From an uncultured archaeon (lineage in GTDB: Archaea > Thermoplasmatota > Penumbrarchaeia > JASLWR01): a DNA stretch of 64,000 nt. Position numbers and translations under genes: made by a program. The stretch is from NCBI GenBank assembly GCA_964342815.1, contig CAYFHS010000001.1, forward strand, positions 179,849-243,848, in the 5' to 3' direction. Below the pieces are notes generated by a model that was not told the origin of the DNA, made no database searches, and saw only the letters and a program-made list of their open reading frames with translations. Of this stretch, positions 12,906-33,540 are shown in pieces (the first letter of the stretch is position 1; every line of letters begins with the position of its first letter).

Positions 12906-14282
12906 TTATATCGCTTTCGGCGTCGGAGGGATCAATCCCCTATCCATCAGAGCCCTGGTTTTGTTCCGCGATTGTTCGATTATTTCCCGTGCCCTATCAC
13001 GTATCTCCTGCGTGGACAGCTTCCGCCTCGCTATACCCTGCTCGATGGCTTTACGTCCCACATATTCAGCCTCCTTGATGAAAACCTCCCAGTCATCCAT
13101 TGTGGGAACGATGTAATCCTCGTGTATTCCCTTTTCCACGGCGGTCTCCGCGATGGCGTCCGCAGCGGCAATGGCCATCTCATCGGTGATGGTGGTTGCA
13201 CGTACATCCAGTGTACCCCGGAAGATTCCCGGGAAACCTATTGAATTGTTTATCTGGTTGGGGAAGTCGCTCCTACCAGTACCCACAATTCTTGCTCCTG
13301 CTTCCTTTGCTTCCCAGGGCCAGATCTCCGGAACCGGGTTAGCAACCGGGAATACGATGGCATCATCGTTCATGTCCCGAACCCAATCTTTCTTGATAAT
13401 TCCCGGCCCCGGTCTGGATGCAGCCACGAGAACATCGGCCCCTTTCATTGCCTCTTTGATCCCACCGGTCAAACCGTCCGGATTCGTTGTGGAAGCGAAA
13501 TCGTATTTCCAGGGATTTATTTCCTTCATTCGAGCAAGGTCCTCTCTTCCGTGATGAAGTATTCCCTTGCTGTCCACCAGGGTAATATTTCTTCTAGGAA
13601 CACCATATTTCGTGAGAACCCTGAGATAGGCGATGTTGGCGGCTCCCACGCCATTTACGGCAAATTTTGCTTCATCTATCTTTTTTCCAACGACCTTGAG
13701 TGCGTTAATGGTACCGGCAAGGGTTATGCTTGCAGTACCCTGCTGGTCATCGTGCCACACGGGAATGTCCATTTCTTTTCGTAACCTTTCAAGTATGTAG
13801 AAGCAATCAGGCACTTTTATATCTTCGAGGTTGATACCGCCGAACGTGGGTTCCACAAGTTTTACGGTTTCAATGAACTTATCGGGGTCCTCCGTATCTA
13901 TCATCAGAGGCTGAGCATCCACTCCCCCGAGATATTTAAAAAGAAGCCCCTTCCCCTCCATTACCGGAAGACCTGCATAGGGACCGATGTTTCCAAGGCC
14001 AAGTACTCTTGTGCCGTTGCTGGCCACCGCCACCGTATTCCACCGGTTGGTCAATTCGTTTACCTCGGAGATATCTTCCTTGATGGCGAGGCATGGCTGG
14101 GCAACGCCAGGAGTATAATAAACCGCGAAATCACTGAACGAACTTATGGAACACTTGGAAATGATTTCTATTTTACCTTGAAAATGTCTATGCCAGGGTA
14201 TTCCCTTGCGGACCGGTTCTTTCGCTTTTTCCAGTAATTTTGAAGCATCGATAGGTGAATTCTTTTCACTTTCTTCTGCCAT
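12906..14282 (-). CDS. mae: NAD(P)-dependent malic enzyme (no PTA fusion)
   Basis: YYTPGVA, VASNGTRVLGLGNIG, PVMEGKGLLFK, GGINLEDI, WHDDQQGTA, ANPVPEI and GRSDFPNQINN motifs. Confidence 0.95.
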   Translation of the reverse strand: MAEESEKNSPIDASKLLEKAKEPVRKGIPWHRHFQGKIEIISKCSISSFSDFAVYYTPGVAQPCLAIKEDISEVNELTNRWNTVAVASNGTRVLGLGNIGPYAGLPVMEGKGLLFKYLGGVDAQPLMIDTEDPDKFIETVKLVEPTFGGINLEDIKVPDCFYILERLRKEMDIPVWHDDQQGTASITLAGTINALKVVGKKIDEAKFAVNGVGAANIAYLRVLTKYGVPRRNITLVDSKGILHHGREDLARMKEINPWKYDFASTTNPDGLTGGIKEAMKGADVLVAASRPGPGIIKKDWVRDMNDDAIVFPVANPVPEIWPWEAKEAGARIVGTGRSDFPNQINNSIGFPGIFRGTLDVRATTITDEMAIAAADAIAETAVEKGIHEDYIVPTMDDWEVFIKEAEYVGRKAIEQGIARRKLSTQEIRDRAREIIEQSRNKTRALMDRGLIPPTPKAI

Positions 14283-16256: not shown

Positions 16257-17129
16257 TTAATGCTCATCCAAATCCTCTTTACTCAACAACCCAGGTATCT
16301 CACCGGGAGTCATGGCAACCATAACTCCGGCAGCCTGCAACGCCTCTATCTTTGACTGTGCAGTTCCTTTCCCTCCTGATATGATGGCTCCGGCATGCCC
16401 CATGGTCTTACCCCTTGGAGCTGCCCGGCCTGCGATGTAGGCCACCACAGGTTTCGTAATATTGCTCTTTATGTACTCCGCCGCTTCTTCCTCGGCGCTG
16501 CCTCCGATCTCTCCGATCAGCACAATTCCCGCTGTATCCGTGTCACTTTCGAAACGCGCCAGCAGCTCGATGAAATTCAACCCCACTATTGGGTCGCCGC
16601 CCAGCCCTATTGCAGTGGACTGACCCATGCCCGCCTTACTTAGATCGTCCACTATCTCGTATGTAAGAGTGCCGCTCCGTGATATGAGACCGATGTTTCC
16701 GGGACTGAATACGTGGGCTGGCATTACTCCCATCTTGCATTTCCCCGGACTGATGATGCCGGGAGTGTTCGGGCCTACGACGACTATTTCTTTTTTACTG
16801 GCCCGGTGGACGATCTCCAGAGAATCATGTATCGGAATGTGCTCAGTAATAACCACAACCGGATCCAGTCCGAATTCGATTGCTTCCAGAGCAGCGTCTT
16901 TCGCAAAGGCTGCTGGAACGAAGATAATGGATGCCGTGGGTTTTTCGGGAATCTCATCGAATGAATCATAGACCATTATATCTCCCACCTTTTCACCACC
17001 CTTTCCCGGCGTCACTCCTGCCACGACATTTGTTCCGTAATCGATCAATCTTTCAGTATGGAACCTCCCTTGGCCTCCTGTAATTCCCTGGACAACCACT
17101 TTGGTCGCTTCGTCGATTATTATTGACAT
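16257..17129 (-). CDS. sucD: Succinyl-CoA synthetase alpha subunit
   Basis: VVVQGITG, GVTPGKGG, GPNTPG, SRSGTLTYE, IGEIGG and MGHAGA (phospho-His) motifs. Confidence 0.97.
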   Translation of the reverse strand: MSIIIDEATKVVVQGITGGQGRFHTERLIDYGTNVVAGVTPGKGGEKVGDIMVYDSFDEIPEKPTASIIFVPAAFAKDAALEAIEFGLDPVVVITEHIPIHDSLEIVHRASKKEIVVVGPNTPGIISPGKCKMGVMPAHVFSPGNIGLISRSGTLTYEIVDDLSKAGMGQSTAIGLGGDPIVGLNFIELLARFESDTDTAGIVLIGEIGGSAEEEAAEYIKSNITKPVVAYIAGRAAPRGKTMGHAGAIISGGKGTAQSKIEALQAAGVMVAMTPGEIPGLLSKEDLDEH

Positions 17130-18371
17130 TTAAGCCCCCTCCCTGAATTCAGCGGAATCGGTCCCCTTTGAGGCTGCGATTCCGCGAACATTGTCACAAG
17201 TGCAAACTTCGACATTTTTTCGAGCTTCGCACTTATGACAATATGCTCTTGCCTGTTCCACAGCATTTTTCGCGGAGTCCTCCATGTTCTCGTAAACATG
17301 ATAACCGTTATCAGTTAAAATTTTCTTACCTTCTTCCTCGTTCGTACCCATCATTCGCACCGAGATAGGTATACTTGGCGCGATATCAACGATGCCCTTT
17401 GCGATCTCGTCGCATTTCGTTATACCGCCGAAGATGTTGATAAAGATGGATCTTACCCCCGGTTTTTTCAGAACAATACTCAGAGCTTTACTCATATTTC
17501 TAGCATTGGCACCGCCGCCCACATCCAGAAAATTGGCCGGTTCGCCATTATACTGTTGAAGTATATCCAATGAGGCCATGACGAGACCTGCGCCACAGCC
17601 GATTATAGCGATATTTCCCGGTAGATCCACATATGCCAACCCCGCTTCCCGCGCCTCTTTTTCGAGAGCGGTAAACTCTTCGGTTGTTTCCCCTTCAGTC
17701 TTGAATTCCAGATGACGGAAAACTGCATTGTTATCGATATTCAGAACTGCATCAACGGCCACGACATTTCCATTATTCGTGAGAATCAGGGGATTTATTT
17801 CGGCCAATTCCCCGTCGTACGCTTTGAATACTTCGTAAAGCTTTATAGTAATTACCGCAACCTTCAACATAGCTCTTGCGGAAAGACCAATCTGCTTTGC
17901 CATTTTACGGGCGTGATATTGTTGAAATCCGACATCAGGATCGATATCGAACCTTGCGATGGCCTTGGGATTCTCTCGGGCGACCTCTTCAATATCCACA
18001 CCTCCCCTGGAGGACAATATGCAGGTGAAACTTCTTGACTTGCGGTTTACAGTAAATCCCACGTACAGCTCTCTCGCATGGATCAGGTCTGCCTTTTCTT
18101 CGATCAAAAGTTGTCGGACAGTGTATCCTTTTAGTTCCATTCCAAGCAATTCGGGGATTATCTTCATGGCCTCACTTTTCGTGCTAGCGAATTTTATCCC
18201 GCCGGCTTTGCCCCGTCCGCCAACCAGGACCTGGGCTTTCAGGGCTACCGGAAATTTAAGCTCCTTCAGTAAGGCCTCTGCATCACCTTCATTATCGATA
18301 ACGATACCCTTGGGTATCGGTATCCCATATTGTGAAAATATCTCCTTTGCCCTGTATTCATGTAATTTCAT
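17130..18371 (-). CDS. sucC: Succinyl-CoA synthetase beta subunit with a Cys-rich C-terminal extension
   Basis: [50 protein letters not shown] and [10 protein letters not shown] motifs; stop abuts the sucD start. Confidence 0.96.
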
Positions 18372-22215: not shown

Positions 22216-22387
22216 ACGTTAGTCCCGAGCATGACGGGGGGCGCTAGACCCTCGACATGCGCAGTTTGCAATGTGTTCCTTCAATATATTTCTATTATTT
22301 TTCGGAAAATCTAAATATTAAGAAAGTTAATCTATCCTAACTATATGCATATAAAAAGACATTATTTTTAATTCTGGGAATGTAACT

Positions 22388-23470
22388 ATGAGTGAATCAC
22401 AAGACATTGGATACCATTGTTTTCACGAATCAGATTGGGATTATTTTAAAGATTCAATCGGGGATTTTGATAAACAATGGGAAGAAGTAACAAATAACCT
22501 GGGGAGTGATTTTTTATCTTATTTACAATCATTTCTTTTCGAAAACCAATATTTCTTTTCTGAAGATTGTACTTTTCAAGTTGAACTAATCATTGATACA
22601 AATATAGTGTTTGGGGAAATAAGAGCAATATTGAAAGGGAAACCCTCATTCCTAATGTCTATTATTGGAAATCCATTCTTAAAATTGTATGCTCCACCCG
22701 AAATAGTAGAAGAAACTATCTCGACAATAGAAAATGACTTGCCAAGAAATTTAAACCAAATCAAAGCAAAAGAAGTAGCTATGAACATCTTATCTCAAAT
22801 CGAGATATTACGGGGACAACGTCTTGAATCATGGATTCATGCATATCATTTGATAGGAGAGCGCGATAAGAAAGATGTCCCCTTTTTATCCCTCGCATTT
22901 TCATTGGAATCTCATGGAATTATGACCCGGGATAAAGATTTCGAAGATCAAACGGATGTGAGAATATGGAAATTGGGGGAAGCAGGAAGAATGGTATCCG
23001 ATTTTAGTAAAGGATCGTTCTCATTTTTCATATTAGGTAATTTCATACCAAGATTGATACAATTTTGTTATTGGTTGTGTGTAAGTTTTTTAAAATTCGT
23101 TGCTGATGTAGTTAAAGGATTTATTTCCGTTATTACAGCCCTAATAAAGGGGGGAGCAGATGCATTATCACGAATTCCAAAATGGATTTTATTCAGTGCA
23201 TTAGGTTTAGTTGCAATTACATTAATCTGTTCTGAAAAAGCAAGAGAACGAATTGGAAATTTTATGAAAGATATTGGTAAAATAGCCTTATTTGCTTTTA
23301 ATGAAATTAAGAAATTATTTAAAAGAGTAATTGAGGGCATTCGACAAATGATTCAATTATTAATGCCTTTCATTTCAGTCGTTATTAATGCGGTTGGCTA
23401 TCTATTTTATCATGTCCAACGACTCATTAATAGAATTCATGAGCTCGAAGAATCTAGAGCCGAATTGTAA
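22388..23470 (+). CDS. PIN-domain ribonuclease fused to a hydrophobic/amphipathic C-terminal helical region
   Basis: LIIDTNIV, VEET, DKKDVPFLSLA and IMTRDKDF supply the PIN acidic residues. The C-terminal ~150 aa are long hydrophobic/amphipathic helices. AT-rich. Confidence 0.8.
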   Translation: MSESQDIGYHCFHESDWDYFKDSIGDFDKQWEEVTNNLGSDFLSYLQSFLFENQYFFSEDCTFQVELIIDTNIVFGEIRAILKGKPSFLMSIIGNPFLKLYAPPEIVEETISTIENDLPRNLNQIKAKEVAMNILSQIEILRGQRLESWIHAYHLIGERDKKDVPFLSLAFSLESHGIMTRDKDFEDQTDVRIWKLGEAGRMVSDFSKGSFSFFILGNFIPRLIQFCYWLCVSFLKFVADVVKGFISVITALIKGGADALSRIPKWILFSALGLVAITLICSEKARERIGNFMKDIGKIALFAFNEIKKLFKRVIEGIRQMIQLLMPFISVVINAVGYLFYHVQRLINRIHELEESRAEL

Positions 23471-23655: not shown

Positions 23656-23924
23656 TTATTACGAATCATTCGCCTAAATCCTAAAAACCTTCCTTGGATT
23701 CCAAACTACAACAGCTTTTTCCGCTACATCTTTCACTACTTCGTCACCCACCTGTCACAAGATATAACTGCATCTAATTGGCTCCTCATATCTGGGAACT
23801 CCAAAGGTCGTAATTATGGATATATTTATTCTGGGTCCAAGCTTTGCAATTATGATGAATATCAAAATAACAAACCCTTGCGAAATCTTTATTGATTTTA
23901 ACTTGTATCAAACAGGTCGATCAT

Positions 23925-24794
23925 ATGTCCGAGCAAATAAAAAATGCTACTTTGGAACTTTTGAGAAGAGCCGCCACATCGTTGCCCACCGACGTCATGA
24001 ACGCCTTAAACCATACCTATGAGAGTGAAGAATCACCCGCCGCGAAGATGAACCTGAAGGCTATTCTTGAAAATGTGAATGTTGCTGAAGAACAGTCGCT
24101 ACCCATGTGCCAAGATACGGGAGCACCCATTTTTTGGATATATTATCCCAAGTCCTATTCCCAGTTAGAGCTTCGTAAGCAGATCAACAAAGCGGTAAGA
24201 GTTGCTTCGGAAATTCCTTATCTTCGACCCAATGCCGTCGATTCCATTACCGGCAAGAATTCCGGGGATAATATCGGTAATGGCGTTCCGGTATTTCATT
24301 TCAAAGAATGGGCTGAAAATCATATCATGGTCGAGCTGATGCTGAAGGGCGGCGGCTCAGAGAATGTATCCCCCCAGTACAAGTTACCCGACTCGTCACT
24401 GGGGGCGGGCCGCAACCTGGAGGGTGTAAGAAAATGCGTTATCGATGCCGTTTTCAGGGCTCAGGGATTGGGCTGTGCTCCGGGGGTGATAGGAGTGGCC
24501 ATTGGGGGTAACCGAGACACCGCGTATGCAGCGGCAAAAAGAGCTCTTATGCGGCCTTTCGATTATCAGAATCACGTACCCGAATTGAACGAACTGGAAC
24601 AAAGATTAATGAAGGAATTGAACGAGCTGGGTATCGGTCCAATGGGTTTTGGGGGGAAAACAACCGTGCTCGCCGTCAAGGCCGTGGCTTTACATCGGCT
24701 TCCCGCCTGCTTCTTCGTTACAATTGCATATAACTGCTGGGCCCTGCGCCGTCAGACAATGATCATCAAGGGAGGTGTGGTTAGCTATGACTGA
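23925..24794 (+). CDS. fumA: Fe-S hydro-lyase alpha subunit (class I fumarate hydratase / tartrate dehydratase family)
   Basis: PMCQDTG, LRPNAVD, KGGGSEN, GCAPGVIGVAIGG and GIGPMGFGGKTT motifs. ATG 23925 preferred. Confidence 0.9.
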   Translation: MSEQIKNATLELLRRAATSLPTDVMNALNHTYESEESPAAKMNLKAILENVNVAEEQSLPMCQDTGAPIFWIYYPKSYSQLELRKQINKAVRVASEIPYLRPNAVDSITGKNSGDNIGNGVPVFHFKEWAENHIMVELMLKGGGSENVSPQYKLPDSSLGAGRNLEGVRKCVIDAVFRAQGLGCAPGVIGVAIGGNRDTAYAAAKRALMRPFDYQNHVPELNELEQRLMKELNELGIGPMGFGGKTTVLAVKAVALHRLPACFFVTIAYNCWALRRQTMIIKGGVVSYD

Positions 24795-25365
24795 GCTGAG
24801 ATTACCCACCGATGAAGCTACCGTTAGAGAGCTGAACGTAGGAGATTTCGTCGAAATAACGGGTATCATGTTTACTGGACGGGATGCCGCCCATACTTTT
24901 TTGATGGAAAAAGACCGGGAAAAATTCAAGGAGTTGCTGAAAGGCAGAATAATATATCACTGTGGACCCGTCGTAAAAAAAGTCCACGGGGAGTGGAAGT
25001 TCATTTCAGCCGGACCTACAACGAGCATTCGTGAAGAACCGTATCAGGCGGATGTTTTCAAACGGTACGGTCTAAGAGGGGCACTGGGTAAAGGCGGGAT
25101 GGGGAAAAAAACCATTGCAGGGTGCAAGGAATTCGGTGCGGTTTACCTGCATGCCGTAGGCGGGGCGGGAGCGCTGGCAGCCGCCTCAGTAAAAAGAGTG
25201 AAAAATGTATACATGCTCGAGGAATTCGGCGTACCGGAAGCTTTCTGGGAGATCGACGTGGAGCGGTTTCCAGCAGTGGTGACCATTGATTCCAAGGGCC
25301 GGAGCCTTCACGAAACGGTAAGGAGAAATTCTAAAACAGAATACCGAAGACTTCTGGGAATCTGA
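24787..25365 (+). CDS. fumB: Fe-S hydro-lyase beta subunit (class I fumarate hydratase)
   Basis: TGRDAAH, IYHCGPVV, GPTTSIR, GKGGMG and VTIDSKG motifs; overlaps the alpha-subunit stop. Confidence 0.9.
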   Translation: MTELRLPTDEATVRELNVGDFVEITGIMFTGRDAAHTFLMEKDREKFKELLKGRIIYHCGPVVKKVHGEWKFISAGPTTSIREEPYQADVFKRYGLRGALGKGGMGKKTIAGCKEFGAVYLHAVGGAGALAAASVKRVKNVYMLEEFGVPEAFWEIDVERFPAVVTIDSKGRSLHETVRRNSKTEYRRLLGI

Positions 25366-25549
25366 TTTTTTATCGGCCTTTTTATTGATATTGATAATTA
25401 TCGTGTGGCACCATTTTCCGATAGGTCTCGAAATAATGTAAATGTCTGGGAAAATTATATATTTCGGTATTTCCGGGAAAAAATCTATTTAAAAATGCAT
25501 CATTAACCATCACTGACCCCAGTGTGATGTCCCAGGAGGAAACTACCAG

Positions 25550-27511
25550 ATGAGGATTGGTGTGTACGTCTGTCATTGCGGAGGAAATATATCCGAAGTT
25601 GTGGATGTGGAAGCCGTTTCGATGTTTGCGGACGATCAACAAGACGTCGTATTGGCCCGGGATTATTCACATATGTGCTCGGAAGCGGGACAGAAACTTA
25701 TTTTGGACGATATACGAGATCATGAGTTGGATCGGGTCGTGGTGGCTGCCTGTTCACCTCAATTTCATGAAAGGACCTTTATGACACTTATGGAAAGGGC
25801 GGGTCTATCCCCCTATCTTCTGGAGATCGTCAATCTGCGTGAGCACTGTTCGTGGCCCCATTTTGGAAAGCCAGTAGAGGCCACTGAAAAGGCCAAGGAT
25901 CTGACCAGTATTGGAATCGCAAAGGTACGTCTTGACGAGCCATTGGAAAAGAAATCCATGCCAATAGGTAAGAGAGTACTGGTCATAGGGGCCGGAGTGG
26001 CTGGGATCCAGGCAGCTCTTGACCTGGGGGACGCGGGCTTCGAAGTATCTCTAGTTGAACGGGAACCCACCATCGGCGGAAAGATGGCCCAGCTTTCAAA
26101 GACATTTCCCACTGAAGACTGCGCCGCTTGTATCCTCTCACCCAAGATGGCAGATGTTCCAGCAAATCCGAACATTACTCTGTATACTTATTCAGAAGTT
26201 GAGAGCATCAGCGGTTCTCTTGGAAATTATGAGGTGACTATTGAAAAAAAACCCCGATATGTTGATACGGAAAAATGCGTAGGGTGCGGGATTTGTGTGG
26301 CGAAATGCCCCGTAAAGGTTCCGAATAGATTCGATGAAGGATTGGAAAACCGGAAAGCTATTTATCTTCCAAGTGATCTGGCCGTCCCCTACAAATACCT
26401 CATTGATGAAACCGCATGTCTTCATCTCACCAAGGATAAATGCGGGCTCTGTGAAAAATTCTGCCCACAAGATGCGGTAGATTTCGAACAGGAACCCGAA
26501 AGAATAACATTTACAGTGGATACCATCATAGTCGCTACCGGTTTTGACGTTTTCGATGCCGCGGAAAAAAAGGTATACGGTTACGGAAAGTATGAAAATG
26601 TTCTAACCGCATTAGAGATGGAACGGATATTATCGCATATCTCCAATGGTAACGAGATAAAGGAGATCGGCAATAGGATTGCCTTCATTCAATGTGTGGG
26701 ATCACGTGACGAGCAGGTCGGAAATGAATACTGTTCAAAGATCTGCTGTATGTACGCGAGTAAACAGGCTCAATTGCTCAAACGTGCCGATCCCGACAGG
26801 GATATCTATGTGTTCTACACCGATCTGCGGGCAACTGGAAAGGGATTTGAGGAATATTACAAGAGAGCACAGAAGGAAGGGGTCAAATTCATACGTGGAA
26901 GGGTGGCTGAGGCCTTAGAGGATTCCAATACGAAGAAAGTGACGCTGAAGGCGGAAGACACGCTAACCCGCAGCCTGATCGAATCGGAATTCGATACGGT
27001 AGTCCTATCAGTGGGTTTGATACCCAACAAGGGTACCGAGAAGGTCGCCGATATTCTAAGGTTGGCAAAGTCCCCGGACGGTTTTTTAAAGGAAGCTCAC
27101 CTGAAGTTCAAACCGGTAGACACCATTACCGAGGGAGTTTTCATCTGCGGGTGCGCGCAGAGCCCAAAGGATATTCCCGATACGGTGGCCCAGGCCAGTG
27201 CCGCCGCGGCAAGGGCCATGAGGCTCATGAACCGTGGTGTGTACGAAATGGACCCGGTAAAATCATTCGTCTTGGATGATCATTGTGACGGGTGCGCCTA
27301 CTGCGTGGACCCCTGTCCATATAAGGCTCTGACTCTCATAGAGTACATGAGGGATGGGGAGATAAAGAAGACTGTTGAAACAAATGAAGTTGCTTGCAGG
27401 GGCTGCGGAGTTTGCATGGCGACATGCCCCCACGAGGGTATCTACGTGAAACACTTCCGAACGGACATGATTTCAGCAATGGTGGATGCTGCCCTGGTAA
27501 GAAACGGGTGA
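25550..27511 (+). CDS. hdrA: Heterodisulfide reductase subunit A (FAD, electron-bifurcating family)
   Basis: IGVYVCHCGGNI, VAACSP, NLREHCSW, GAGVAG, FPTEDCAACIL, CVGSRD, CSKICCMY and GCAQSPKDI motifs; inserted and C-terminal 2x[4Fe-4S] domains; no MvhD fusion. Confidence 0.96.
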   Translation: MRIGVYVCHCGGNISEVVDVEAVSMFADDQQDVVLARDYSHMCSEAGQKLILDDIRDHELDRVVVAACSPQFHERTFMTLMERAGLSPYLLEIVNLREHCSWPHFGKPVEATEKAKDLTSIGIAKVRLDEPLEKKSMPIGKRVLVIGAGVAGIQAALDLGDAGFEVSLVEREPTIGGKMAQLSKTFPTEDCAACILSPKMADVPANPNITLYTYSEVESISGSLGNYEVTIEKKPRYVDTEKCVGCGICVAKCPVKVPNRFDEGLENRKAIYLPSDLAVPYKYLIDETACLHLTKDKCGLCEKFCPQDAVDFEQEPERITFTVDTIIVATGFDVFDAAEKKVYGYGKYENVLTALEMERILSHISNGNEIKEIGNRIAFIQCVGSRDEQVGNEYCSKICCMYASKQAQLLKRADPDRDIYVFYTDLRATGKGFEEYYKRAQKEGVKFIRGRVAEALEDSNTKKVTLKAEDTLTRSLIESEFDTVVLSVGLIPNKGTEKVADILRLAKSPDGFLKEAHLKFKPVDTITEGVFICGCAQSPKDIPDTVAQASAAAARAMRLMNRGVYEMDPVKSFVLDDHCDGCAYCVDPCPYKALTLIEYMRDGEIKKTVETNEVACRGCGVCMATCPHEGIYVKHFRTDMISAMVDAALVRNG

Positions 27512-27580
27512 GACAAATGCTCGACAATGAAATGATATCAAGATTTACCAATAATTCCTTCAAAATAGGAGGGTGCCGTT

Positions 27581-27985
27581 ATGGTAGATAAGATAGTTTT
27601 CTCCTCGGATAACGTGAAATTTCAGGAAAAAATATCTAAATTGAGCGGAGAGGTAATTACTCTGTGCGACCAGTGCGGTACATGTTCCGGGGGCTGTCCA
27701 TTTATGGCAGATATGGATATAACTCCATCTCAGATCATGAGAATGGTTCAACTGGGTCAGAAAGAGGTTATGGAAACCTTTGCCATATGGATCTGTGCTT
27801 CATGTTTCACCTGCACAATTCGATGTCCCCGGGGATTGGACATTTCTAAAGTTGCGGAAGCCTTGAGACAGGTGATCCTGAGACGAGCTGCAGACCATGT
27901 GGACCTTAAGTCCCTTTCGGAGGATGAAGTGGCGAAACTACCTCAAATAGCCGTAATAAGTGCCTGCCGCAAGTTAACTGGATAG
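27581..27985 (+). CDS. hdrC: Heterodisulfide reductase subunit C
   Basis: CDQCGTCSGGCP and CASCFTCTIRCP; GGAGGGTG RBS. Confidence 0.92.
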   Translation: MVDKIVFSSDNVKFQEKISKLSGEVITLCDQCGTCSGGCPFMADMDITPSQIMRMVQLGQKEVMETFAIWICASCFTCTIRCPRGLDISKVAEALRQVILRRAADHVDLKSLSEDEVAKLPQIAVISACRKLTG

Positions 27986-27996
27986 GTGAAAAAGGA

Positions 27997-28896
27997 ATGA
28001 AGATACCGTATTTTCCCGGATGCACCCTCAAAACAACGGCGAGGAACTTTGACGTCACAGCCAGAGCCGCAGCCAAGATACTGGATGTGGAGTTAGTGGA
28101 GCTGGACAAATGGAATTGCTGTGGAACGGTATACTCATTACTTGCTGACAACCTGATGAATCATCTTGCCCCCGTGAGAAACTTCATAAGGGTGCAGGGT
28201 ATGAAGGATGAAGGGATCATTGATGATGGGAACAAGCTGGTCACATTATGTTCAATGTGTTTCAATACAATGAAGAGTGCGAACCATCGGATGAAAAATT
28301 CACCTGGAGACCTAAGGAAGATCAATGAATTCATGTATCGGGAAAAGGATTATAACAGAAATGTGGAGGTTGTCCACTTTCTAGAACTGATAAAAGAAAT
28401 CGGTTACGAAAAAGTCAGGGAAAAGGTCAGCAAACCTCTCGGGAACATGAAAATTTCCCCGTATTACGGATGCATGTTATTGAGGCCGAAAGAGATATCC
28501 ATCGATGATCCTGAGGACCCTATGATTCTTGAGGAATTAATGACGTCGCTTGGGGCAGTCATTGTGGACAATCCCCTCAAAAAGATGTGTTGTGGGACAT
28601 ACCAGACGGCAAGGGACAAAGGGATAGTGGTACGGTTGGCCGGGGATATTCTTTCCCGCTCGGTATACGAGGGAGCCGATGCAATAATCACCAGCTGCCC
28701 GCTTTGTGCCTTCAATCTCGATGACAGGCAGAAGGATATTGTCCAAAAGGAGCCGACTTTTAAAAAGATTCCTGTATTCTATTTCACCCAGTTGATGGCC
28801 CTGGCCTTCGGCCTTGGCCAGGAAATATGCCTCTTTGATCTGAATTATGTTGATCCCAGGCCGCTGCTACTAGAAAAAGGACTTTTGGAGAGATGA
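27997..28896 (+). CDS. hdrB: Heterodisulfide reductase subunit B (two CCG domains)
   Basis: YFPGCT, WNCCG, CSMC, YYGC, CCG and CPLC motifs. Confidence 0.93.
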   Translation: MKIPYFPGCTLKTTARNFDVTARAAAKILDVELVELDKWNCCGTVYSLLADNLMNHLAPVRNFIRVQGMKDEGIIDDGNKLVTLCSMCFNTMKSANHRMKNSPGDLRKINEFMYREKDYNRNVEVVHFLELIKEIGYEKVREKVSKPLGNMKISPYYGCMLLRPKEISIDDPEDPMILEELMTSLGAVIVDNPLKKMCCGTYQTARDKGIVVRLAGDILSRSVYEGADAIITSCPLCAFNLDDRQKDIVQKEPTFKKIPVFYFTQLMALAFGLGQEICLFDLNYVDPRPLLLEKGLLER

Positions 28897-29666
28897 CAAA
28901 GGTGGAAATAATGACTAACAATATGGATATCATGGACCGGATCACACAAGCTAACGAATCGGTAATATCCGGGATCGACGCTAAGGATGTCGAGCATTGG
29001 GTGACAATATACATAATGGGAAAGGCATACGAGGTTCCAGCAGGTTTGACCATCATGCAGGCAATGGAGTACGCAGGATACCAGTTCGTGAGATCGGCGG
29101 GATGCCGGGCGGGATTCTGCGGAGCTTGTGCCACTGTATTTCGGAAAAAGGGCAATTACAAACTCTCGTCAGCCATGGCATGTCAGACAGTGGCGGAAGA
29201 GGGAATGTATCTTGTCCAGATTCCCTTTACGCCCGGGGAGAAAGCAATCTACGACATAGGGAAAGAAAGTTACGATGTATCTGTCTTTTTCCGTCACTAC
29301 CCCGAGATTGCGCGATGTTTATCATGCAATACCTGCACAAAAGCATGCCCCCAGGACCTGGAAGTGATGGATTATATACAGGCAGCTATAAGGGGAGATT
29401 TCAGCGATATTGCACACGGTTCTTTCGACTGTATTCAGTGCGGTCTTTGCGCCATGAGATGCCCCGCGGAGATGGTGCAATATCATATAGCCCAGTTGGC
29501 AAGGAGAATGTACGGGCGCTACGGCAATCCGGAACCGGACCATCTAAGGGATAGGTTGAACGAGTTGAAGGAATGTAAATTCGAAGGGGAACTTGATGAA
29601 CTTGTAAAGGCCGATCGAGATGAACTTGCAAGGCGATATGCCCAGCGGGATATGAAAATAAAGTGA
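28893..29666 (+). CDS. frdB: Fumarate reductase/succinate dehydrogenase-type iron-sulfur subunit ([2Fe-2S] + 2x[4Fe-4S])
   Basis: GCRAGFCGAC...AMAC (2Fe-2S), CLSCNTCTKACP and CIQCGLCAMRCP; ATGA overlap with hdrB. Confidence 0.82.
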   Translation: MTKVEIMTNNMDIMDRITQANESVISGIDAKDVEHWVTIYIMGKAYEVPAGLTIMQAMEYAGYQFVRSAGCRAGFCGACATVFRKKGNYKLSSAMACQTVAEEGMYLVQIPFTPGEKAIYDIGKESYDVSVFFRHYPEIARCLSCNTCTKACPQDLEVMDYIQAAIRGDFSDIAHGSFDCIQCGLCAMRCPAEMVQYHIAQLARRMYGRYGNPEPDHLRDRLNELKECKFEGELDELVKADRDELARRYAQRDMKIK

Positions 29667-29686
29667 TTAGCGGAGGAGGATACGAT

Positions 29687-31348
29687 ATGTCCGAGTTGAA
29701 GTTAATAAGGGGCTACCCCCAGTATATTCGCGAGCTTATAGATGTTGTGAACAGGACCAGGGAGGAACGAGAGAATTTCACACCTCAGGCCATGAGCAAG
29801 GAAGAGAGATTGGATGTTCTGAACAACTATCATCCTGATTTTACACCTGGCGGAAAAAGAAACATAAAATTGGGCCAGAACGCTGGCGATCTCGGTCCTA
29901 ATCCGGTGGTGGATCTTCTTGAAGCTTATCCGCTAATCGAAGAAAGAGAGATCGGTCTTTCGAAGGTGGATCACCGCGTTGACCTCCTGATAATCGGAGG
30001 GGGTCTGGCCGGCACGGCTGCTGCCATATCGGCCAATGAAAATGGAATTCCGGCTGACCGGATTTTACTTGTAAATAAACTGAGGCACGGCGATGCTAAC
30101 TCTATAATGGCGGAGGGTGGAACCCAGGCGGCAGATCTTCCGGAGGATTCCCCGGCCATACATTATCTGGACACCATGGGCGGCGGCCACTATACCAATA
30201 AACCTGACGTTCTCAGAGCTCTCGTTGAAGATGCACCCATGATAATGCATTGGCTCTGTGATATGGGGGCGTTGATCGATCGTGAGGATAACGGAGATTT
30301 TGTCGAGAGGCCCGGAGGGGGCACCTCGAGAAAACGCATGCACGCCTGCCGGGATTACACCGGTTTGGAAGAATTCAGAGTGCTCCGGGACGAGTTCAGG
30401 AATCGAGCTATCCCTTCACTAGAGTATTATCCCGTGATCGAGCTTATAAAAGATACTGAGGGGAAGGTGGCGGGAGGGGTTATCTGGAACTTCGAGACCG
30501 GCGAATACCGTATAGTAAAGGCAAATGCCACGATACTTGCTACTGGAGGTTTCGGGCGGCTTCATATCAGAGGTTTCCCCACCACCAATCACTATGGTGC
30601 AACTTGCGATGGTGTCGTCATCGCTTACCGGGCCGGAGCCAAATTGAGGGACGTGGATACGGTCCAGTATCACCCCACGGGAGCTGCCTACCCGCAGCAA
30701 ATAATAGGGCTTCTTCTGACCGAGAAACTGAGAAGTATGGGCGCACAGCCCGTGAACAAGGATGGGGAAGCATTCGTCTTTCCTCTGGAGCCACGGGATG
30801 TGGAAGCTTCTTCCTTTATAAGAGAATGCTACGAACACGAAAAGGGGATAAAAACTCCCACAGGTATGATGGGGATATGGCTGGATACTCCCTTGATCGA
30901 ACTGAAACACGGAAAAGGCGCTATCGATGCTTCCTTCCCCGGTATGGTGAGGATGTTCGAACGTTTCGGAATCGACATGAAAAAGGATCCAGTACTAGTT
31001 TTCCCCACCCTACATTATCAGAACGGCGGAGTTGAGACGGACCCCAAGGGCCGTAGCACCGTACCCGGACTTTGGGTGGCGGGGGAGGTTTCAGGAGGTG
31101 TGCATGGGAAGAACAGGCTAATGGGGAATTCAACCCTGGACTGCATGGTCTTCGGTAGAAGGGCGGGTATTGATGCAGCGGAATATGTGAGATCGGGAAA
31201 GAAGGCAGGGGAACTGACCCTGGCGCATATCACAGAATATACAAAAATGCTTGAGGAGGCTGGTATAGAACCAGTGAGAAAAGCCCCGATACTATTACCG
31301 GACTACCGAGGGAAGGCGGTGCTGGCGAGAATGATCGACGTGTTTTGA
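29687..31348 (+). CDS. frdA: Fumarate reductase flavoprotein subunit (TfrA-like, predicted non-covalent FAD)
   Basis: IIGGGLAG, MAEGG, ATGGFG, QYHPTG, TEKLR, EPRD, PTLHYQNGG and HGKNRLMGNS motifs; GGAGGAGG RBS before ATG 29687. Confidence 0.85.
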   Translation: MSELKLIRGYPQYIRELIDVVNRTREERENFTPQAMSKEERLDVLNNYHPDFTPGGKRNIKLGQNAGDLGPNPVVDLLEAYPLIEEREIGLSKVDHRVDLLIIGGGLAGTAAAISANENGIPADRILLVNKLRHGDANSIMAEGGTQAADLPEDSPAIHYLDTMGGGHYTNKPDVLRALVEDAPMIMHWLCDMGALIDREDNGDFVERPGGGTSRKRMHACRDYTGLEEFRVLRDEFRNRAIPSLEYYPVIELIKDTEGKVAGGVIWNFETGEYRIVKANATILATGGFGRLHIRGFPTTNHYGATCDGVVIAYRAGAKLRDVDTVQYHPTGAAYPQQIIGLLLTEKLRSMGAQPVNKDGEAFVFPLEPRDVEASSFIRECYEHEKGIKTPTGMMGIWLDTPLIELKHGKGAIDASFPGMVRMFERFGIDMKKDPVLVFPTLHYQNGGVETDPKGRSTVPGLWVAGEVSGGVHGKNRLMGNSTLDCMVFGRRAGIDAAEYVRSGKKAGELTLAHITEYTKMLEEAGIEPVRKAPILLPDYRGKAVLARMIDVF

Positions 31349-31554
31349 GTGTATCCCGTGTCCTTCTGTTTTATATAAACCCGGACCTGGATATCTATCA
31401 ATGGATTCGGTCGATATTTGCCATTGATACACAATAAATATCACCATAGGATCTCAATTTTCTGATAGATTCCAGATTTGTGAAAGACCTGGAGATTTGA
31501 AAGGACAATCTTGAAAAAAATATTGATACTTATTATTTTGAAAAATGCGTTATA

Positions 31555-33339
31555 TTATTTTTTTAATAACTTAATTGTGATGAAAATAAACGAACCAATC
31601 GAAACAAAAATAACACAAAAGATCAGGTATGGTGAAAAAATTAATTTTTCGTCAGTTACTTCTTCCTCATCCCCCTTTTCAACATTCACAACTTTACTGT
31701 TTGATATTTTAATATCTTTTACTTTTTTCTGTCCATTTTGGTTTACCTTCATGTAGTATACTTCCACCTCCCCCGATCTCCTATCGAGCCATACGATATT
31801 CATTGCATTGTCGATATCCAAACAGAATGCCGGATCGAAAGATTTTCCCTTTTTAAACGTTAACTGTTTTTTGGAAAGTACATTATTTCCTGAGAAATCG
31901 CATTTTAACATGAAAAGTTCACTTTTTGATCCAGTATGGTTATACCATACAATACAGACATTCCCGTGCTGATCCACACAAACTGCCGGTTCATAAACAT
32001 TTTCAGTACATAATGTTATACTGTCCTCAACTTCAATAGTGTCCTCATTATTAATGTAAACCTCTTCCGGGGGTACGGAGACTAATTGTACGTTGATTAT
32101 TTCAAAATCAATAAAATCATAATCCTTCTCCAGCATAATACGATATTTTCCGTTGCCGGTTACGATCTCAGTTACATCATATATAAAAGAAACATTATCG
32201 GGTGATTTGTAAATCCTTAGTAAGTAATCCCCAATCGTTTGAAATTCACCTTCATCCTGATTCAGAAAGACCTCACCGGAAACTCTTCCATAATTATTCT
32301 TTTTCATGGTTATTTCCACAAAATACTCATGTTCCTTTTTAAAATCATCCAAATACAGTGTAAATTGATTCTCCTTTTCAAAAGAAAAATTTAGCAATAA
32401 TGGTTCCAAATCTATAGGTTCCGGGTTGTATGATTCTTCATTTATTGGGGGAATATCATCGATTGGAAGCAAAACCAAATCCCTGTTCTTTGTCCATACT
32501 ATACTTATTTCATCATTTGAATTTATTAACATTTCCAATGAAAATTGTCCCGTTCTTTCGCGGTTGACCCCAATCGATTTTCCTCCAATAATTTTTCCCT
32601 GAAGATCCGTTTCAATGATCTCTATGAACCAATTATTACTCAGTTCATCATTTCTATACCAGCTCATATAGATATTCCCATTAGGATCAATTATTATCGA
32701 CGGATCGAAGGAATCGGGGTAACTAATAGTTTGAACCGGATACAGCGTCGAGCCAACACGATTTAATTTTAAATACTGTATTGTCGCGTGAGAATAATTC
32801 AGTGCTGTCCAAACAATATGAAGATTGTCCTCAGGGTCCAATGCAATATCCGCATCTGTGGATTTATAGGAATTATTGCTTAATGTTTTTGGCTTTACAA
32901 GGATTTTTCCTTCATTATTTTGTTTTGTGTAATATATTGTACTATCTATTTCGAAAACGATATGCACGTCATCCCTTTTATCCACAATGATATCTGGATC
33001 GAGCGTTCCACCACCAGTATTAAAACTGATTGGTTGTCTGATTTTCAAATCGTTCAAACCCCCGGTGGCAATTTTTTTATCATCTATTATCGTTTTTCCA
33101 TTTCCATTTAATTTTGTGTAATAAATATTAATTTGATTATCGTTAATACCCTCTTCAGCCCAAACCACATGAAGATTATTTTTGCTATCTCGGGCAATGT
33201 TTATACTTTCAGAATCCAATTGATAATCATGGTAAGGATCATCAATACAACCGCTGGAAGAAAGAATTACAAGGAATAAGAGAATAATTGAAATAATTAC
33301 TTTGTTGATATTTTTTGTAAAAACTTGTTTCTTTTTCAT
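31555..33339 (-). CDS. Lipoprotein-like beta-propeller protein with C-terminal TM anchor (AT-rich)
   Basis: MKKK...ILLFLVILSSSGC lipobox-like signal (start 33339 preferred over 33498); seven D..(G/D)N(L/V)H(I/V)VW blades; C-terminal TM. Confidence 0.7.
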   Translation of the reverse strand: MKKKQVFTKNINKVIISIILLFLVILSSSGCIDDPYHDYQLDSESINIARDSKNNLHVVWAEEGINDNQINIYYTKLNGNGKTIIDDKKIATGGLNDLKIRQPISFNTGGGTLDPDIIVDKRDDVHIVFEIDSTIYYTKQNNEGKILVKPKTLSNNSYKSTDADIALDPEDNLHIVWTALNYSHATIQYLKLNRVGSTLYPVQTISYPDSFDPSIIIDPNGNIYMSWYRNDELSNNWFIEIIETDLQGKIIGGKSIGVNRERTGQFSLEMLINSNDEISIVWTKNRDLVLLPIDDIPPINEESYNPEPIDLEPLLLNFSFEKENQFTLYLDDFKKEHEYFVEITMKKNNYGRVSGEVFLNQDEGEFQTIGDYLLRIYKSPDNVSFIYDVTEIVTGNGKYRIMLEKDYDFIDFEIINVQLVSVPPEEVYINNEDTIEVEDSITLCTENVYEPAVCVDQHGNVCIVWYNHTGSKSELFMLKCDFSGNNVLSKKQLTFKKGKSFDPAFCLDIDNAMNIVWLDRRSGEVEVYYMKVNQNGQKKVKDIKISNSKVVNVEKGDEEEVTDEKLIFSPYLIFCVIFVSIGSFIFITIKLLKK

Positions 33340-33540
33340 TACCAAATATCTGGTTTTATTATTTTTAATCATGATATCATATACTTTCTTCTTGCCGATA
33401 TATAAAATTTTTGTGTTATTATACAATGGAGACTTGGAATGGAATTTTTTTTCGATAGGTAATAAGTGTGTCTCGTTAGTAAATGGAAAGAGGGACATCG
33501 TTTTTTACGAATGAAAATTGGGTAAATAATCGGTTTTTCT

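What the first reader, a model, noticed from the sequence alone, without database searches (positions are those of the whole stretch)
25550..31348. HdrABC coupled to a soluble fumarate reductase: candidate electron-bifurcating Hdr-Frd complex
Seen: hdrA-hdrC-hdrB-frdB-frdA are co-directional and tightly spaced (hdrB/frdB overlap by ATGA), directly downstream of the fumarase genes. No cytochrome b or hydrophobic anchor (FrdC/D), MvhD, hydrogenase, Flx or mcr gene is present in the cluster. Established: methanogen thiol:fumarate reductase TfrAB carries CCG domains on TfrB, type E succinate dehydrogenases use a CCG subunit instead of a membrane anchor, and HdrA is the flavin-based bifurcating subunit. 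Inference: HdrB/C supply the CCG function that FrdB lacks. Adding HdrA could couple fumarate reduction (directly or through a thiol/disulfide shuttle) to ferredoxin reduction, or drive succinate oxidation by confurcation, in a non-methanogenic archaeon. I know of no biochemically characterised complex with this composition.
Basis: partly seen in the sequence, partly recalled or inferred. Interest (0 to 1): 0.85.

Follow-up and report, generated by a model that had tools for sequence, protein, structure and literature searches.

The report
Hdr-linked soluble fumarate reductase operon
An uncultured marine archaeon carries an operon that joins a heterodisulfide-reductase module to a membrane-free fumarate reductase, an enzyme type already proposed from bacterial genomes but never purified, so this is a new archaeal example and not a new kind of system.

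Summary
fumA-fumB, then hdrA-hdrC-hdrB-frdB*-frdA*, lie co-directionally at 23892-31348. hdrB and frdB* overlap by ATGA. The operon has no anchor, MvhD, hydrogenase or Flx gene.

The "Frd" pair is atypical. The flavoprotein keeps all fumarate-site residues, has Asn in place of the covalent-FAD His, and carries a ~95-aa N-terminal extension. The Fe-S subunit has one 2Fe-2S and two 4Fe-4S sites but is only distantly SdhB-like.

This pair occurs in more than 15 bacterial and archaeal phyla. Of 52 loci with enough flank, 34 had Hdr genes nearby, often with MvhD, Mvh hydrogenase or Flx-like genes, 2-oxoacid:ferredoxin oxidoreductase, fumarase or succinyl-CoA synthetase. A complex prediction places FrdB* on HdrB's first CCG cluster and on HdrC's tail (ipSAE 0.83, best control 0.01).

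Best reading: a cytoplasmic, quinone-independent fumarate reductase wired through HdrCB to a full-length bifurcation-type HdrA. Bifurcation itself is unproven, because no donor module is encoded here.

The idea is already published for bacteria: the P. thermosuccinogenes "succinate operon", Ca. Endoriftia and Thiomargarita. I found no purified enzyme in the papers searched. This scan has also noted the family in 44 other genomes.

Verdict: new member of a known (proposed) kind, moderate interest.

The parts
12906..14282 (-). Malic enzyme (pathway context, C4-dicarboxylate branch)
   Evidence: 55% identity over 443 residues to the malic enzyme of locus L082, which carries PF00390/PF03949. A relative's locus, L107, also has a 458-aa malic enzyme next to sucCD.
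16257..18371 (-). sucD (16257-17129) and sucC (17130-18371), succinyl-CoA synthetase (pathway context)
   Evidence: Pfam CoA_binding/Ligase_CoA and ATP-grasp_2/Ligase_CoA. The same pair lies directly next to fumAB in relative L107 and in several bacterial loci.
23892..25365 (+). fumA (23892-24794; gene callers start it 33 bp later) and fumB (24775-25365), two-subunit class I Fe-S fumarase
   Evidence: PF05681 at 6e-79 and PF05683 at 3e-49; TIGR00722 and TIGR00723 above cut-off.
25366..25549 (+). 184-bp intergenic region with T-runs just after the fumB stop and A/T-rich TATA-like boxes before hdrA; possibly a terminator plus a separate promoter for hdrA
   Evidence: Read directly from the sequence; an inference, with no RNA data.
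25550..27511 (+). hdrA, a full-length bifurcation-type HdrA flavo-Fe-S subunit without a fused MvhD domain
   Evidence: 731 bits to 5odc_A, with residues 2-645 aligned to 5-646. NF040770 HdrA2 scores 850 bits but covers only model positions 1-641 of 777, so the C-terminal part of that model is absent.
27581..27985 (+). hdrC, a short HdrC (134 aa) with two 4Fe-4S sites and a family-specific C-terminal tail
   Evidence: Eight invariant Cys. Residues 7-102 align to solved HdrC chains and the tail does not. Tail residues 109-133 touch FrdB* in the complex model.
27997..28896 (+). hdrB, a subunit with two CCG domains (two non-cubane 4Fe-4S sites); scores similarly to the HdrB and SdhE models
   Evidence: PF02754 twice. 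TIGR03288 151 bits and NF042965 (SdhE) 137 bits, both below cut-off. Ten invariant Cys: C9, C41, C42, C85, C88, C159, C198, C199, C234, C237.
28893..29666 (+). frdB*, the Fe-S subunit: a NuoG-type 2Fe-2S domain plus an HdrC-like two-cluster domain
   Evidence: Invariant Cys C71, C76, C79, C97; C142, C145, C148, C152; C180, C183, C186, C190. Fold: residues 34-113 resemble NuoG/HydA 2Fe-2S domains (Z 9-10) and residues 126-213 resemble HdrC (Z 11.5). Full-length but weak Foldseek matches to FrdB/SdhB.
29687..31348 (+). frdA*, a fumarate-reductase-type flavoprotein (553 aa) that cannot bind FAD covalently and has a ~95-aa N-terminal extension
   Evidence: PF00890 at 5.5e-67. Best fold match is E. 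coli FrdA 1kf6_A, TM 0.65. Invariant H329, E346, R349, R370, H443 and R477, with invariant N138 at the covalent-His position.

Best explanation
hdrA-hdrC-hdrB-frdB*-frdA* encode one cytoplasmic, quinone-independent fumarate reductase complex of the 'Hdr-linked' type.

FrdA* reduces fumarate to succinate at a non-covalently bound FAD. FrdB* carries electrons to it through one 2Fe-2S and two 4Fe-4S clusters. FrdB* sits directly on the first CCG (non-cubane cluster) domain of HdrB and on the C-terminal tail of HdrC. The proposed Fe-S wire is therefore HdrA-FAD, HdrC, HdrB, FrdB*, FrdA*-FAD, with no free thiol/disulfide shuttle.

HdrA is a complete methanogen-type bifurcating flavoprotein. The likeliest role is to use fumarate (about +30 mV) as the high-potential acceptor that pays for ferredoxin reduction from a mid-potential donor. 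That donor module is not in this operon. It would have to come from one of the MvhD/hydrogenase/FrhB-like loci elsewhere in the genome, or be bound by HdrA itself.

Together with malic enzyme, fumarase and succinyl-CoA synthetase nearby, the enzyme serves the reductive C4 branch: pyruvate/malate, fumarate, succinate, succinyl-CoA.

Shown: gene content, cofactor-binding residues, conserved synteny, and a predicted HdrBC-FrdB* interface. Inferred: the order of the wire, the direction, bifurcation and the donor.
For: 1. Domain and residue evidence.
- All fumarate-site residues are invariant in 22 homologues (H329, E346, R349, R370, H443, R477). By my own reading of the motifs these correspond to E. 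coli FrdA H232, E245, R248, R287, H355 and R390.
- The covalent-FAD His is Asn in every homologue.
- All cluster cysteines of FrdB*, HdrB and HdrC are invariant.
- HdrA aligns end to end with the solved bifurcating HdrA.

2. Pathway context. Fumarase lies directly upstream, and sucCD and malic enzyme are nearby. Related loci repeatedly carry fumarase (13 of 52), 2-oxoacid:ferredoxin oxidoreductase (19 of 52), sucCD and malic enzyme.

3. Hdr linkage.
- 34 of 52 well-flanked loci have Hdr genes and 18 have all three. MvhD is present in 22, and 19 have HdrA together with an Mvh-hydrogenase, Flx-like or FrhB-like donor gene.
- Archaea of the same class and phylum show HdrCB-FrdB*A*-Kor-HdrA arrangements.

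4. A dedicated HdrBC. Frd-linked HdrB from other phyla is 39-60% identical (mostly 48-60%), against 29-30% for this genome's own HdrB paralogues.

5. Predicted contact.
- HdrB + HdrC + FrdB* scored 0.83 against a best of 3 controls of 0.01. That mark was reached by 58 of 80 solved complexes and 2 of 110 mismatched pairs. Runs agree in at least 77% of contacts, and partner pLDDT is at least 68.
- The interface includes the HdrB cluster ligands C9 and C41 and the FrdB* ligands C142 and C145.
- My PDB sequence searches found no solved complex pairing an HdrB-like chain with an SdhB-like chain.

6. Relation to TfrB. FrdB* residues 44-107, HdrC 15-104 and HdrB 2-260 match TfrB model positions 19-82, 124-221 and 263-477. 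The three proteins together resemble a split, extended TfrB.

7. This is the only full-length PF00890 protein in the genome, and nadX (aspartate dehydrogenase) lies in the window. It is therefore not needed as NadB.
Against: - No donor module or MvhD is in the operon or within 10 kb, so bifurcation has no encoded third partner here.
- There is no expression or biochemical evidence.
- The complex score is a model's confidence, obtained with my own shallow alignments and with three chains, which differs from the tool's calibration.
- Both CCG sites are fully conserved, which is equally compatible with a retained thiol/disulfide chemistry.
- 18 of 52 loci, mainly Stahlbacteria/WOR-3 and Dehalococcoidia, have the Frd pair without Hdr genes nearby. 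The pair can therefore use other partners.
- The closest relatives in this genome's own genus and family (3 genomes, 91-93% complete) lack the flavoprotein.
Confidence: 0.6

Rival explanations
1. A non-bifurcating ferredoxin:fumarate oxidoreductase. Reduced ferredoxin from 2-oxoacid oxidoreductases enters at HdrA's ferredoxin domains. The electrons run downhill through HdrC, HdrB and FrdB* to fumarate, which acts as a simple electron sink for a fermenter.
For: - The operon encodes no third redox partner.
- Several related loci also have no stand-alone MvhD or donor gene, for example L038, L053, L057 and L103. In three of them the Kor genes sit between hdrB and hdrA.
Against: - HdrA is retained full-length and about as similar to methanogen bifurcating HdrA as those are to each other (731 bits). 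That would be superfluous for plain downhill transfer.
- The closest HdrA homologues (62-66% identity: L048, L051, L059) carry a fused or adjacent MvhD.
- It would waste roughly 480 mV (my estimate from textbook potentials).
Confidence: 0.2
2. A split thiol:fumarate reductase plus disulfide reductase. HdrBC-FrdB*A* acts like TfrAB, oxidising an unknown low-molecular-weight or protein dithiol (for example a DsrC-like protein). HdrA-HdrBC re-reduces the disulfide, so coupling runs through a thiol/disulfide shuttle.
For: - All ten CCG cysteines are conserved.
- The pieces map onto TfrB.
- A shuttle via a DsrC-like protein is one of the two options named for Ca. Endoriftia (PMC11636981).
Against: - There is only one HdrB for two opposite reactions.
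- The predicted direct FrdB*-HdrB contact lies at the first CCG cluster.
- ComA (coenzyme M synthesis) and McrA were not found in the 88.9%-complete genome.
- The TfrA and TfrB equivalog models score far below cut-off.
Confidence: 0.1
3. The complex runs in reverse. Succinate oxidation is driven by confurcation with reduced ferredoxin, serving an oxidative TCA cycle in an organism that has no other SdhA.
For: This is the only full-length PF00890 protein in the genome.
Against: - Asn replaces the covalent-FAD histidine in all 22 homologues.
- From established enzymology of E. coli FrdA His44 variants and soluble fumarate reductases (my knowledge, not tested here), non-covalent FAD supports fumarate reduction but very poor succinate oxidation.
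Confidence: 0.07
4. The flavoprotein acts on another substrate (L-aspartate as in NadB, or another enoate), and the proximity to fumarase is incidental.
For: NadB models score almost as well as TfrA/SdhA models (254-259 against 298 bits), and NadB also lacks covalent FAD.
Against: - The obligatory Fe-S partner gene is adjacent in 68 of 78 loci; NadB has none.
- Linkage to fumarase, sucCD, Kor and malic enzyme recurs across phyla.
- nadX is present in the window.
Confidence: 0.03

Closest known systems
Proposed electron-bifurcating Flx-Hdr-linked fumarate reductase: the 'succinate operon' of Pseudoclostridium thermosuccinogenes (Koendjbiharie & van Kranenburg 2019 preprint, cited in PMC7282089)
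   Same: Fumarase, then Hdr genes, then a two-gene anchorless fumarate reductase in one cluster, with fumarate proposed as the high-potential acceptor for ferredoxin reduction. Aminicenantes-type loci carry the window's own FrdA* family at 76% identity beside HdrA, MvhD and Flx-like genes.
   Different: That cluster includes FlxABCD (the NADH module and an MvhD-like protein); the window has none. That organism is a bacterium. I could not fetch its sequences, so orthology to FrdA* is inferred, not tested. Only transcript data exist for it, and no purified enzyme.
Ca. Endoriftia persephone rTCA cluster: tfrAB/frdAB with korABCD and Hdr-Flx (Rubin-Blum 2019 model; PMC13147460, PMC11636981)
   Same: An AB-only fumarate reductase co-located with Hdr and 2-oxoglutarate:ferredoxin oxidoreductase. 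The model is NADH to fumarate plus ferredoxin. Kor genes are embedded in many loci of the window's family.
   Different: There the cluster belongs to an autotrophic rTCA cycle with ATP-citrate lyase and Flx. Here there is no kor, Flx or acl in the operon. In that study tfrAB deviated from the expression pattern of the rest of the cluster.
Thiol:fumarate reductase TfrAB of Methanothermobacter (Heim et al. 1998, cited in PMC8163825)
   Same: Cytoplasmic and quinone-independent. CCG domains are linked to an SdhB-like Fe-S part and an FrdA-like flavoprotein. TfrA is the best-scoring NCBIfam model for FrdA*.
   Different: TfrB is one polypeptide. Here its parts are spread over FrdB*, HdrC and HdrB, with one extra two-cluster domain and with HdrA added. 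Scores are far below the Tfr equivalog cut-offs (298 against 718; 24-32 against 385). No coenzyme M synthesis gene (ComA) was found.
MvhAGD-HdrABC of methanogens (solved: 5odc, 8rvu, 7bkb)
   Same: HdrA is full length and highly similar (731 bits). HdrB has both non-cubane cluster sites and HdrC both cubane sites.
   Different: There is no MvhD or hydrogenase in the operon, and no methanogenesis. HdrC is truncated with a new tail. HdrB and HdrC score below their equivalog cut-offs. The proposed acceptor is an Fe-S protein leading to fumarate, not CoM-S-S-CoB.
Type E succinate:quinone reductase / methylmenaquinol:fumarate reductase with the SdhE CCG subunit
   Same: A CCG-domain subunit attached to the Fe-S subunit of a complex-II-like enzyme. 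The window's HdrB scores 137 bits on the SdhE model, nearly as high as on the HdrB model.
   Different: Those enzymes are membrane-associated and quinone-linked and have no HdrA or HdrC. The score is far below the SdhE cut-off of 500.
Five-subunit soluble NADH:fumarate reductase of Hydrogenobacter thermophilus (Miura et al. 2008, cited in PMC13147460)
   Same: A soluble multi-subunit fumarate reductase of the reductive TCA branch with an FrdA-like A subunit.
   Different: According to that paper the enzyme is NADH-dependent with C, D and E subunits. The window's operon contains no NAD(P)H-binding subunit. I made no sequence comparison.

Membership tests
Hdr-linked (putatively bifurcating) fumarate reductase gene clusters as proposed in the literature | Anchorless two-subunit fumarate reductase (flavoprotein plus Fe-S protein) encoded in one cluster with hdrA, hdrB and hdrC | tested here: met
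   Gaps between genes are 69, 11, -4 and 20 bp.
Hdr-linked (putatively bifurcating) fumarate reductase gene clusters as proposed in the literature | An electron-donor module (FlxABCD or MvhADG, including an MvhD-like protein) in the same cluster | tested here: not met
   No FlpD, NiFe hydrogenase or NAD-binding gene lies within 10 kb. The nearest MvhD hits lie beyond the window's end, about 39 kb downstream of the operon on the same contig.
Hdr-linked (putatively bifurcating) fumarate reductase gene clusters as proposed in the literature | Co-location with fumarase or other TCA-branch genes | tested here: met
   fumAB directly upstream; sucCD and malic enzyme within 12 kb.
Hdr-linked (putatively bifurcating) fumarate reductase gene clusters as proposed in the literature | Fumarate-dependent ferredoxin reduction, or co-purification of Hdr and Frd | not testable with these tools
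   Only a structure prediction is available. I found no biochemical report.
SdhA/FrdA/NadB flavoprotein superfamily (PF00890) | FAD-binding fold with the dicarboxylate site (two His, two Arg, and a Glu/Arg pair) | tested here: met
   PF00890 at 5.5e-67. Invariant H329, E346, R349, R370, H443 and R477. Fold TM 0.65 to 1kf6_A.
Respiratory complex II flavoproteins (SdhA/FrdA proper) | Histidine for covalent 8-alpha-FAD attachment | tested here: not met
   Asn aligns with the His of 7d6v_A, and N138 is invariant in 22 homologues.
Respiratory complex II flavoproteins (SdhA/FrdA proper) | C-terminal Succ_DH_flav_C domain (PF02910) and a membrane anchor | tested here: not met
   No PF02910 hit at E<=0.001. 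Only about 60 residues follow the FAD domain. No anchor gene is present.
SdhB/FrdB iron-sulfur subunits | N-terminal 2Fe-2S domain plus C-terminal two-cluster domain, recognisable by the family models | tested here: inconclusive
   The same cofactor layout is present, and full-length Foldseek matches to FrdB/SdhB exist at E about 1e-4 but with TM of only 0.25-0.28. Domain by domain it is closer to NuoG-type 2Fe-2S domains and to HdrC. TIGR00384 scores 24 bits against a cut-off of 88.
Thiol:fumarate reductase TfrAB | TfrA and TfrB equivalog scores, with TfrB as one fused polypeptide | tested here: not met
   NF004900 scores 297.7 against a cut-off of 718. NF004898 scores 24-32 against 385, split over three proteins.
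Thiol:fumarate reductase TfrAB | CoM-SH/CoB-SH as electron donors | tested here: inconclusive
   ComA and McrA were not found, but the genome is only 88.9% complete and other thiols are possible.
Methanogen-type HdrABC | Full-length HdrA with FAD and all ferredoxin domains; HdrB with two CCG sites; HdrC with two 4Fe-4S sites | tested here: met
   All three nevertheless score below the NCBIfam equivalog cut-offs (850 against 1100, 151 against 345, 71 against 160), so they form a separate subfamily.
Type E complex II (SdhE CCG subunit) | SdhE equivalog score and quinone/membrane association | tested here: not met
   NF042965 scores 136.8 against a cut-off of 500. There is no sign of membrane association.

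The most novel reading that the evidence does not exclude
In this donor-less form, the two non-cubane clusters of HdrB no longer catalyse thiol/disulfide chemistry. They act as a plain electron relay between HdrC and a docked Fe-S protein (FrdB*). HdrA either takes a mid-potential donor directly or exchanges MvhD-type donor modules encoded elsewhere. That would make the Hdr core a plug-in bifurcation unit, with a protein-wired terminal reductase in place of a disulfide substrate.
Probability: 0.3. Interest if true: 0.65.

Novelty: new member of a known kind. Interest (0 to 1): 0.45.

Why it matters
The FrdB*/FrdA* pair is very widespread in uncultured anaerobes. My protein search hit the 8000-candidate scoring cap, though that total includes other FAD-binding flavoproteins. 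Close relatives of the pair (48-78% identity) occur in Aminicenantes, Aerophobetes, WOR-3/Stahlbacteria, Sumerlaeota, Dehalococcoidia, Planctomycetota, Bathyarchaeia, Thorarchaeota and others.

In those organisms it is probably the fumarate/succinate step of the TCA branch, because they lack a quinone-linked complex II. Whether that step conserves energy by bifurcation changes the ATP and ferredoxin budgets assumed in metabolic reconstructions of these lineages and of rTCA autotrophs.

This archaeal operon is the minimal five-gene version. Together with the predicted HdrB-FrdB* docking site, that makes it a convenient construct for the first biochemical and structural test of an idea that has stayed hypothetical since 2016-2019.

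Tried and rejected
- RNA evidence for co-transcription: no RNA holder was listed for 23800-31500.
- The 2019 preprint that first named this enzyme type is not held. I rely on how PMC7282089 cites it.
- Global Foldseek search with the FrdB* model gave only low TM scores (0.22-0.32) to anything. The domain-wise second look was more informative.
- NadB reading: considered and rejected. The Fe-S partner gene is adjacent in most loci, the TCA gene context recurs, and nadX is present.
- AprAB/Qmo-type reading (APS reductase with HdrA-like Qmo): considered from memory. AprA was not among the 25 best NCBIfam families shown for FrdA* and no sulfate-reduction genes are nearby. I did not pursue it further.
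- Whether HdrBC is truly absent from loci that show only HdrA: not resolved, because many such loci are cut by the 8-kb flank or by a contig end.
- I did not determine the taxonomy myself. An earlier follow-up note calls the genome Thermoplasmatota. The contig comes from a TARA marine metagenome.
- Lateral transfer is suggested but no tree was built. FrdA* is 74-78% identical to bacterial homologues, against 51-59% to the full-length matches in archaea of the same class and phylum, and it was not found in 3 genomes of the same genus and family.

Full report
**1. What is there**

Between 23892 and 31348 seven co-directional genes are present.
- fumA and fumB encode a two-subunit class I fumarase.
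- A 184-bp spacer follows, with T-runs and A/T boxes.
- hdrA (653 aa), hdrC (134 aa) and hdrB (299 aa) come next.
- Last are an Fe-S protein (257 aa, here FrdB*) and a flavoprotein (here FrdA*).

The gaps inside the hdrA-frdA* block are 69, 11, -4 (ATGA) and 20 bp. FrdA* most likely starts at ATG 29687 behind GGAGGAGG, not at GTG 29663. Homologues align from that Met, and a public gene call chose the same start.

No membrane anchor, MvhD, hydrogenase, Flx-like or mcr gene lies within 10 kb. Upstream on the other strand lie sucC/sucD and a malic enzyme. A related archaeal contig has the same fumAB-hdrACB-frdB*A* block with sucCD and malic enzyme directly adjacent, and also no MvhD; its FrdA* is 83% identical.

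**2. The parts**

HdrA aligns end to end with the solved bifurcating HdrA of the Mvh-Hdr complex: 731 bits, residues 2-645 on 5-646 of 5odc_A. It lacks the C-terminal part of the HdrA2 model, matching only positions 1-641 of 777. By my recollection that part is the fused MvhD domain. Some homologues in related loci are about 140 aa longer (760-796 aa).

HdrB keeps all ten cysteines of the two CCG sites, and HdrC keeps its eight. Only residues 7-102 of HdrC resemble solved HdrC chains. Its last ~30 residues are specific to this family. HdrB scores about equally on the HdrB model (151 bits) and on the SdhE model of type E complex II (137 bits), below both cut-offs.

FrdA* has the FAD fold and every residue of the dicarboxylate site: H329, E346, R349, R370, H443 and R477, all invariant in 22 homologues. 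I read these as E. coli FrdA H232, E245, R248, R287, H355 and R390. The histidine that binds FAD covalently is an invariant Asn. Its best structural match is E. coli FrdA, TM 0.65 at 31% identity. It has a well-predicted ~95-residue N-terminal extension and no Pfam Succ_DH_flav_C hit.

FrdB* binds one 2Fe-2S and two 4Fe-4S clusters, judged by twelve invariant Cys. Overall it aligns full-length but weakly with FrdB/SdhB. Domain by domain it resembles NuoG/HydA-type 2Fe-2S domains and the two-cluster domain of HdrC. In the NCBIfam TfrB model, FrdB* 44-107, HdrC 15-104 and HdrB 2-260 hit positions 19-82, 124-221 and 263-477. Together the three proteins look like a split and extended TfrB.

**3. 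Comparative evidence**

- The protein search for FrdA* hit the 8000-candidate scoring cap. The 120 best are 73-85% identical, and those that carry a source's name come from Thermoplasmatota, Aminicenantes, Aerophobetes and WOR-3.
- Eighty genome loci from more than 15 phyla were fetched. FrdB* lies next to FrdA* in 68 of 78.
- Of 52 loci with at least 6 kb upstream, 34 have Hdr genes and 18 have all three. 22 have MvhD, 19 a 2-oxoacid:ferredoxin oxidoreductase and 13 fumarase. 19 have HdrA together with an Mvh-hydrogenase, Flx-like or FrhB-like donor gene.
- Eighteen loci, mainly Stahlbacteria/WOR-3 and Dehalococcoidia, show no Hdr nearby.
- In archaea of the same class and phylum, clusters such as HdrC-HdrB-FrdB*-FrdA*-KorDABG-HdrA(fusion), or HdrA-MvhD-MvhGA-HdrCB-FrdB*A*, occur.
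- Frd-linked HdrB proteins from other phyla are 39-60% identical to the window's HdrB (mostly 48-60%). The genome's own HdrB paralogues are only 29-30% identical. This is a dedicated HdrBC subfamily that travels with the Frd pair.
- The window's FrdA* is closer to bacterial homologues (74-78%) than to the full-length matches in archaea of its own class and phylum (51-59%). It was not found in three genomes of its genus and family. This suggests lateral acquisition of the module; that is inference, and no tree was built.

**4. Predicted contact**

HdrB + HdrC + FrdB* (partner FrdB*) scored 0.83 against a best of 3 controls of 0.01. That mark was reached by 58 of 80 solved complexes and 2 of 110 mismatched pairs. 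The runs agree in at least 77% of contacts, and partner pLDDT is at least 68.

Confident contacts involve three surfaces:
- HdrB residues 8-9, 12-13 and 38-43, which include the cluster ligands C9 and C41;
- the HdrC tail, residues 109-133;
- FrdB* residues 126-146 and 159-169, which include the ligands C142 and C145.

This supports binding but does not show it. My own shallow alignments and a three-chain job differ from the tool's calibration. My PDB sequence searches turned up only Hdr complexes for HdrB, and no SdhB-type chain among the 60 best matches shown for FrdB*. A pass from memory of a like complex therefore seems unlikely for the HdrB-FrdB* interface.

**5. Mechanism**

The most economical reading is a single soluble complex with the wire HdrA-FAD, HdrC, HdrB non-cubane clusters, FrdB* 4Fe-4S, 4Fe-4S, 2Fe-2S, FrdA*-FAD, fumarate.

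Loss of covalent FAD is typical of unidirectional fumarate reductases (established enzymology, recalled and not tested here). The pathway context (malic enzyme, fumarase, sucCD) fits a reductive C4 branch.

A complete bifurcation-type HdrA argues that fumarate, at about +30 mV, serves as the high-potential acceptor that allows ferredoxin reduction from a mid-potential donor. In many related loci that donor is encoded in the cluster as Mvh hydrogenase or Flx-like NAD(P)H modules with MvhD. Here it is not.

The genome has 7 MvhD-domain hits, one NiFe hydrogenase next to MvhD and HdrA on contig C15, and an FrhB-like/MvhD/Hdr cluster on C4. Whether any of them serves this operon is unknown.

The main rival is therefore plain ferredoxin:fumarate reduction. 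A Tfr-like thiol shuttle, confurcating succinate oxidation and another substrate are less likely, for the reasons given under the rival explanations.

**6. What is known**

The idea is not new.
- P. thermosuccinogenes has a 'succinate operon' of fumarase, Flx-Hdr and a two-gene fumarate reductase. It was proposed to couple succinate formation to ferredoxin reduction, and the operon is co-regulated (PMC7282089, citing a 2019 preprint).
- In Ca. Endoriftia an AB-type fumarate reductase is clustered with korABCD and Hdr-Flx. A model of NADH to fumarate plus ferredoxin has been put forward, and there is operon-level expression evidence (PMC13147460, PMC11636981).
- Thiomargarita genomes have frdA beside hdrA-hdrA-mvhD (PMC4914600).
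- A 2024 preprint lists HdrA-succinate dehydrogenase associations from STRING.

I found no purified or structurally solved enzyme of this composition. For Asgard archaea a cytoplasmic Tfr-like fumarate reductase has been mentioned without the Hdr link (PMC8163825).

This scan has already noted the same flavoprotein family in 44 other genomes. One is a followed-up WOR-3 case with a hydrogenase-free Hdr-Frd module.

**7. Verdict**

Hdr-Frd coupling and the CCG role have good comparative and modelling support. Bifurcation remains an inference and lacks an encoded donor here.
- This is a new, archaeal and minimal member of an already proposed but biochemically untested enzyme class.
- Interest is moderate (0.45).

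Noticed in passing
window 19032-23470: Four genes sit between sucC and fumA in a low-GC stretch (0.36-0.40): a 545-aa protein with no Pfam hit, a DUF3795 protein, a DUF8091 protein and a 360-aa PIN-domain protein. In the related contig L107, sucC and fumA are direct divergent neighbours. This block therefore looks like an insertion into the TCA gene cluster.
   Followed up: partly
window 31555-33498 (-): A 647-aa protein lies in a 0.355-GC stretch directly after frdA*. It has an N-terminal hydrophobic segment, repeated beta-rich units and a C-terminal transmembrane helix. It gives only a faint PDIAV-lipoprotein/GH43 hit. The gene is absent at this position in relative L107, so it may be a second insertion.
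   Followed up: no
L037, L045, L118, L120, L121 (related loci): HdrA-like fusion proteins of 1000-1200 aa, apparently two HdrA-like halves, lie beside MvhD, an FrhB-like protein and a second, divergent HdrCB pair, next to the Frd genes. This may be a second Hdr-type module sharing the same fumarate reductase.
   Followed up: no
L075, L078, L082, L085, L087, L090, L094 (Dehalococcoidia/Chloroflexi loci): Here the FrdB*/FrdA* pair has no Hdr genes nearby. It is followed by a small two-cluster ferredoxin and an acyl-CoA dehydrogenase, with fumA upstream and fumB downstream. This is a different partner set for the same reductase.
   Followed up: no
G000 contig C41:5624-13913 and C1:250021-261784: The genome holds several further Hdr-like loci, including open frames of 1477-1638 aa with multiple HdrA-type FAD sites fused to MvhD. 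That is an unusually large Hdr paralogue set for a non-methanogen.
   Followed up: no
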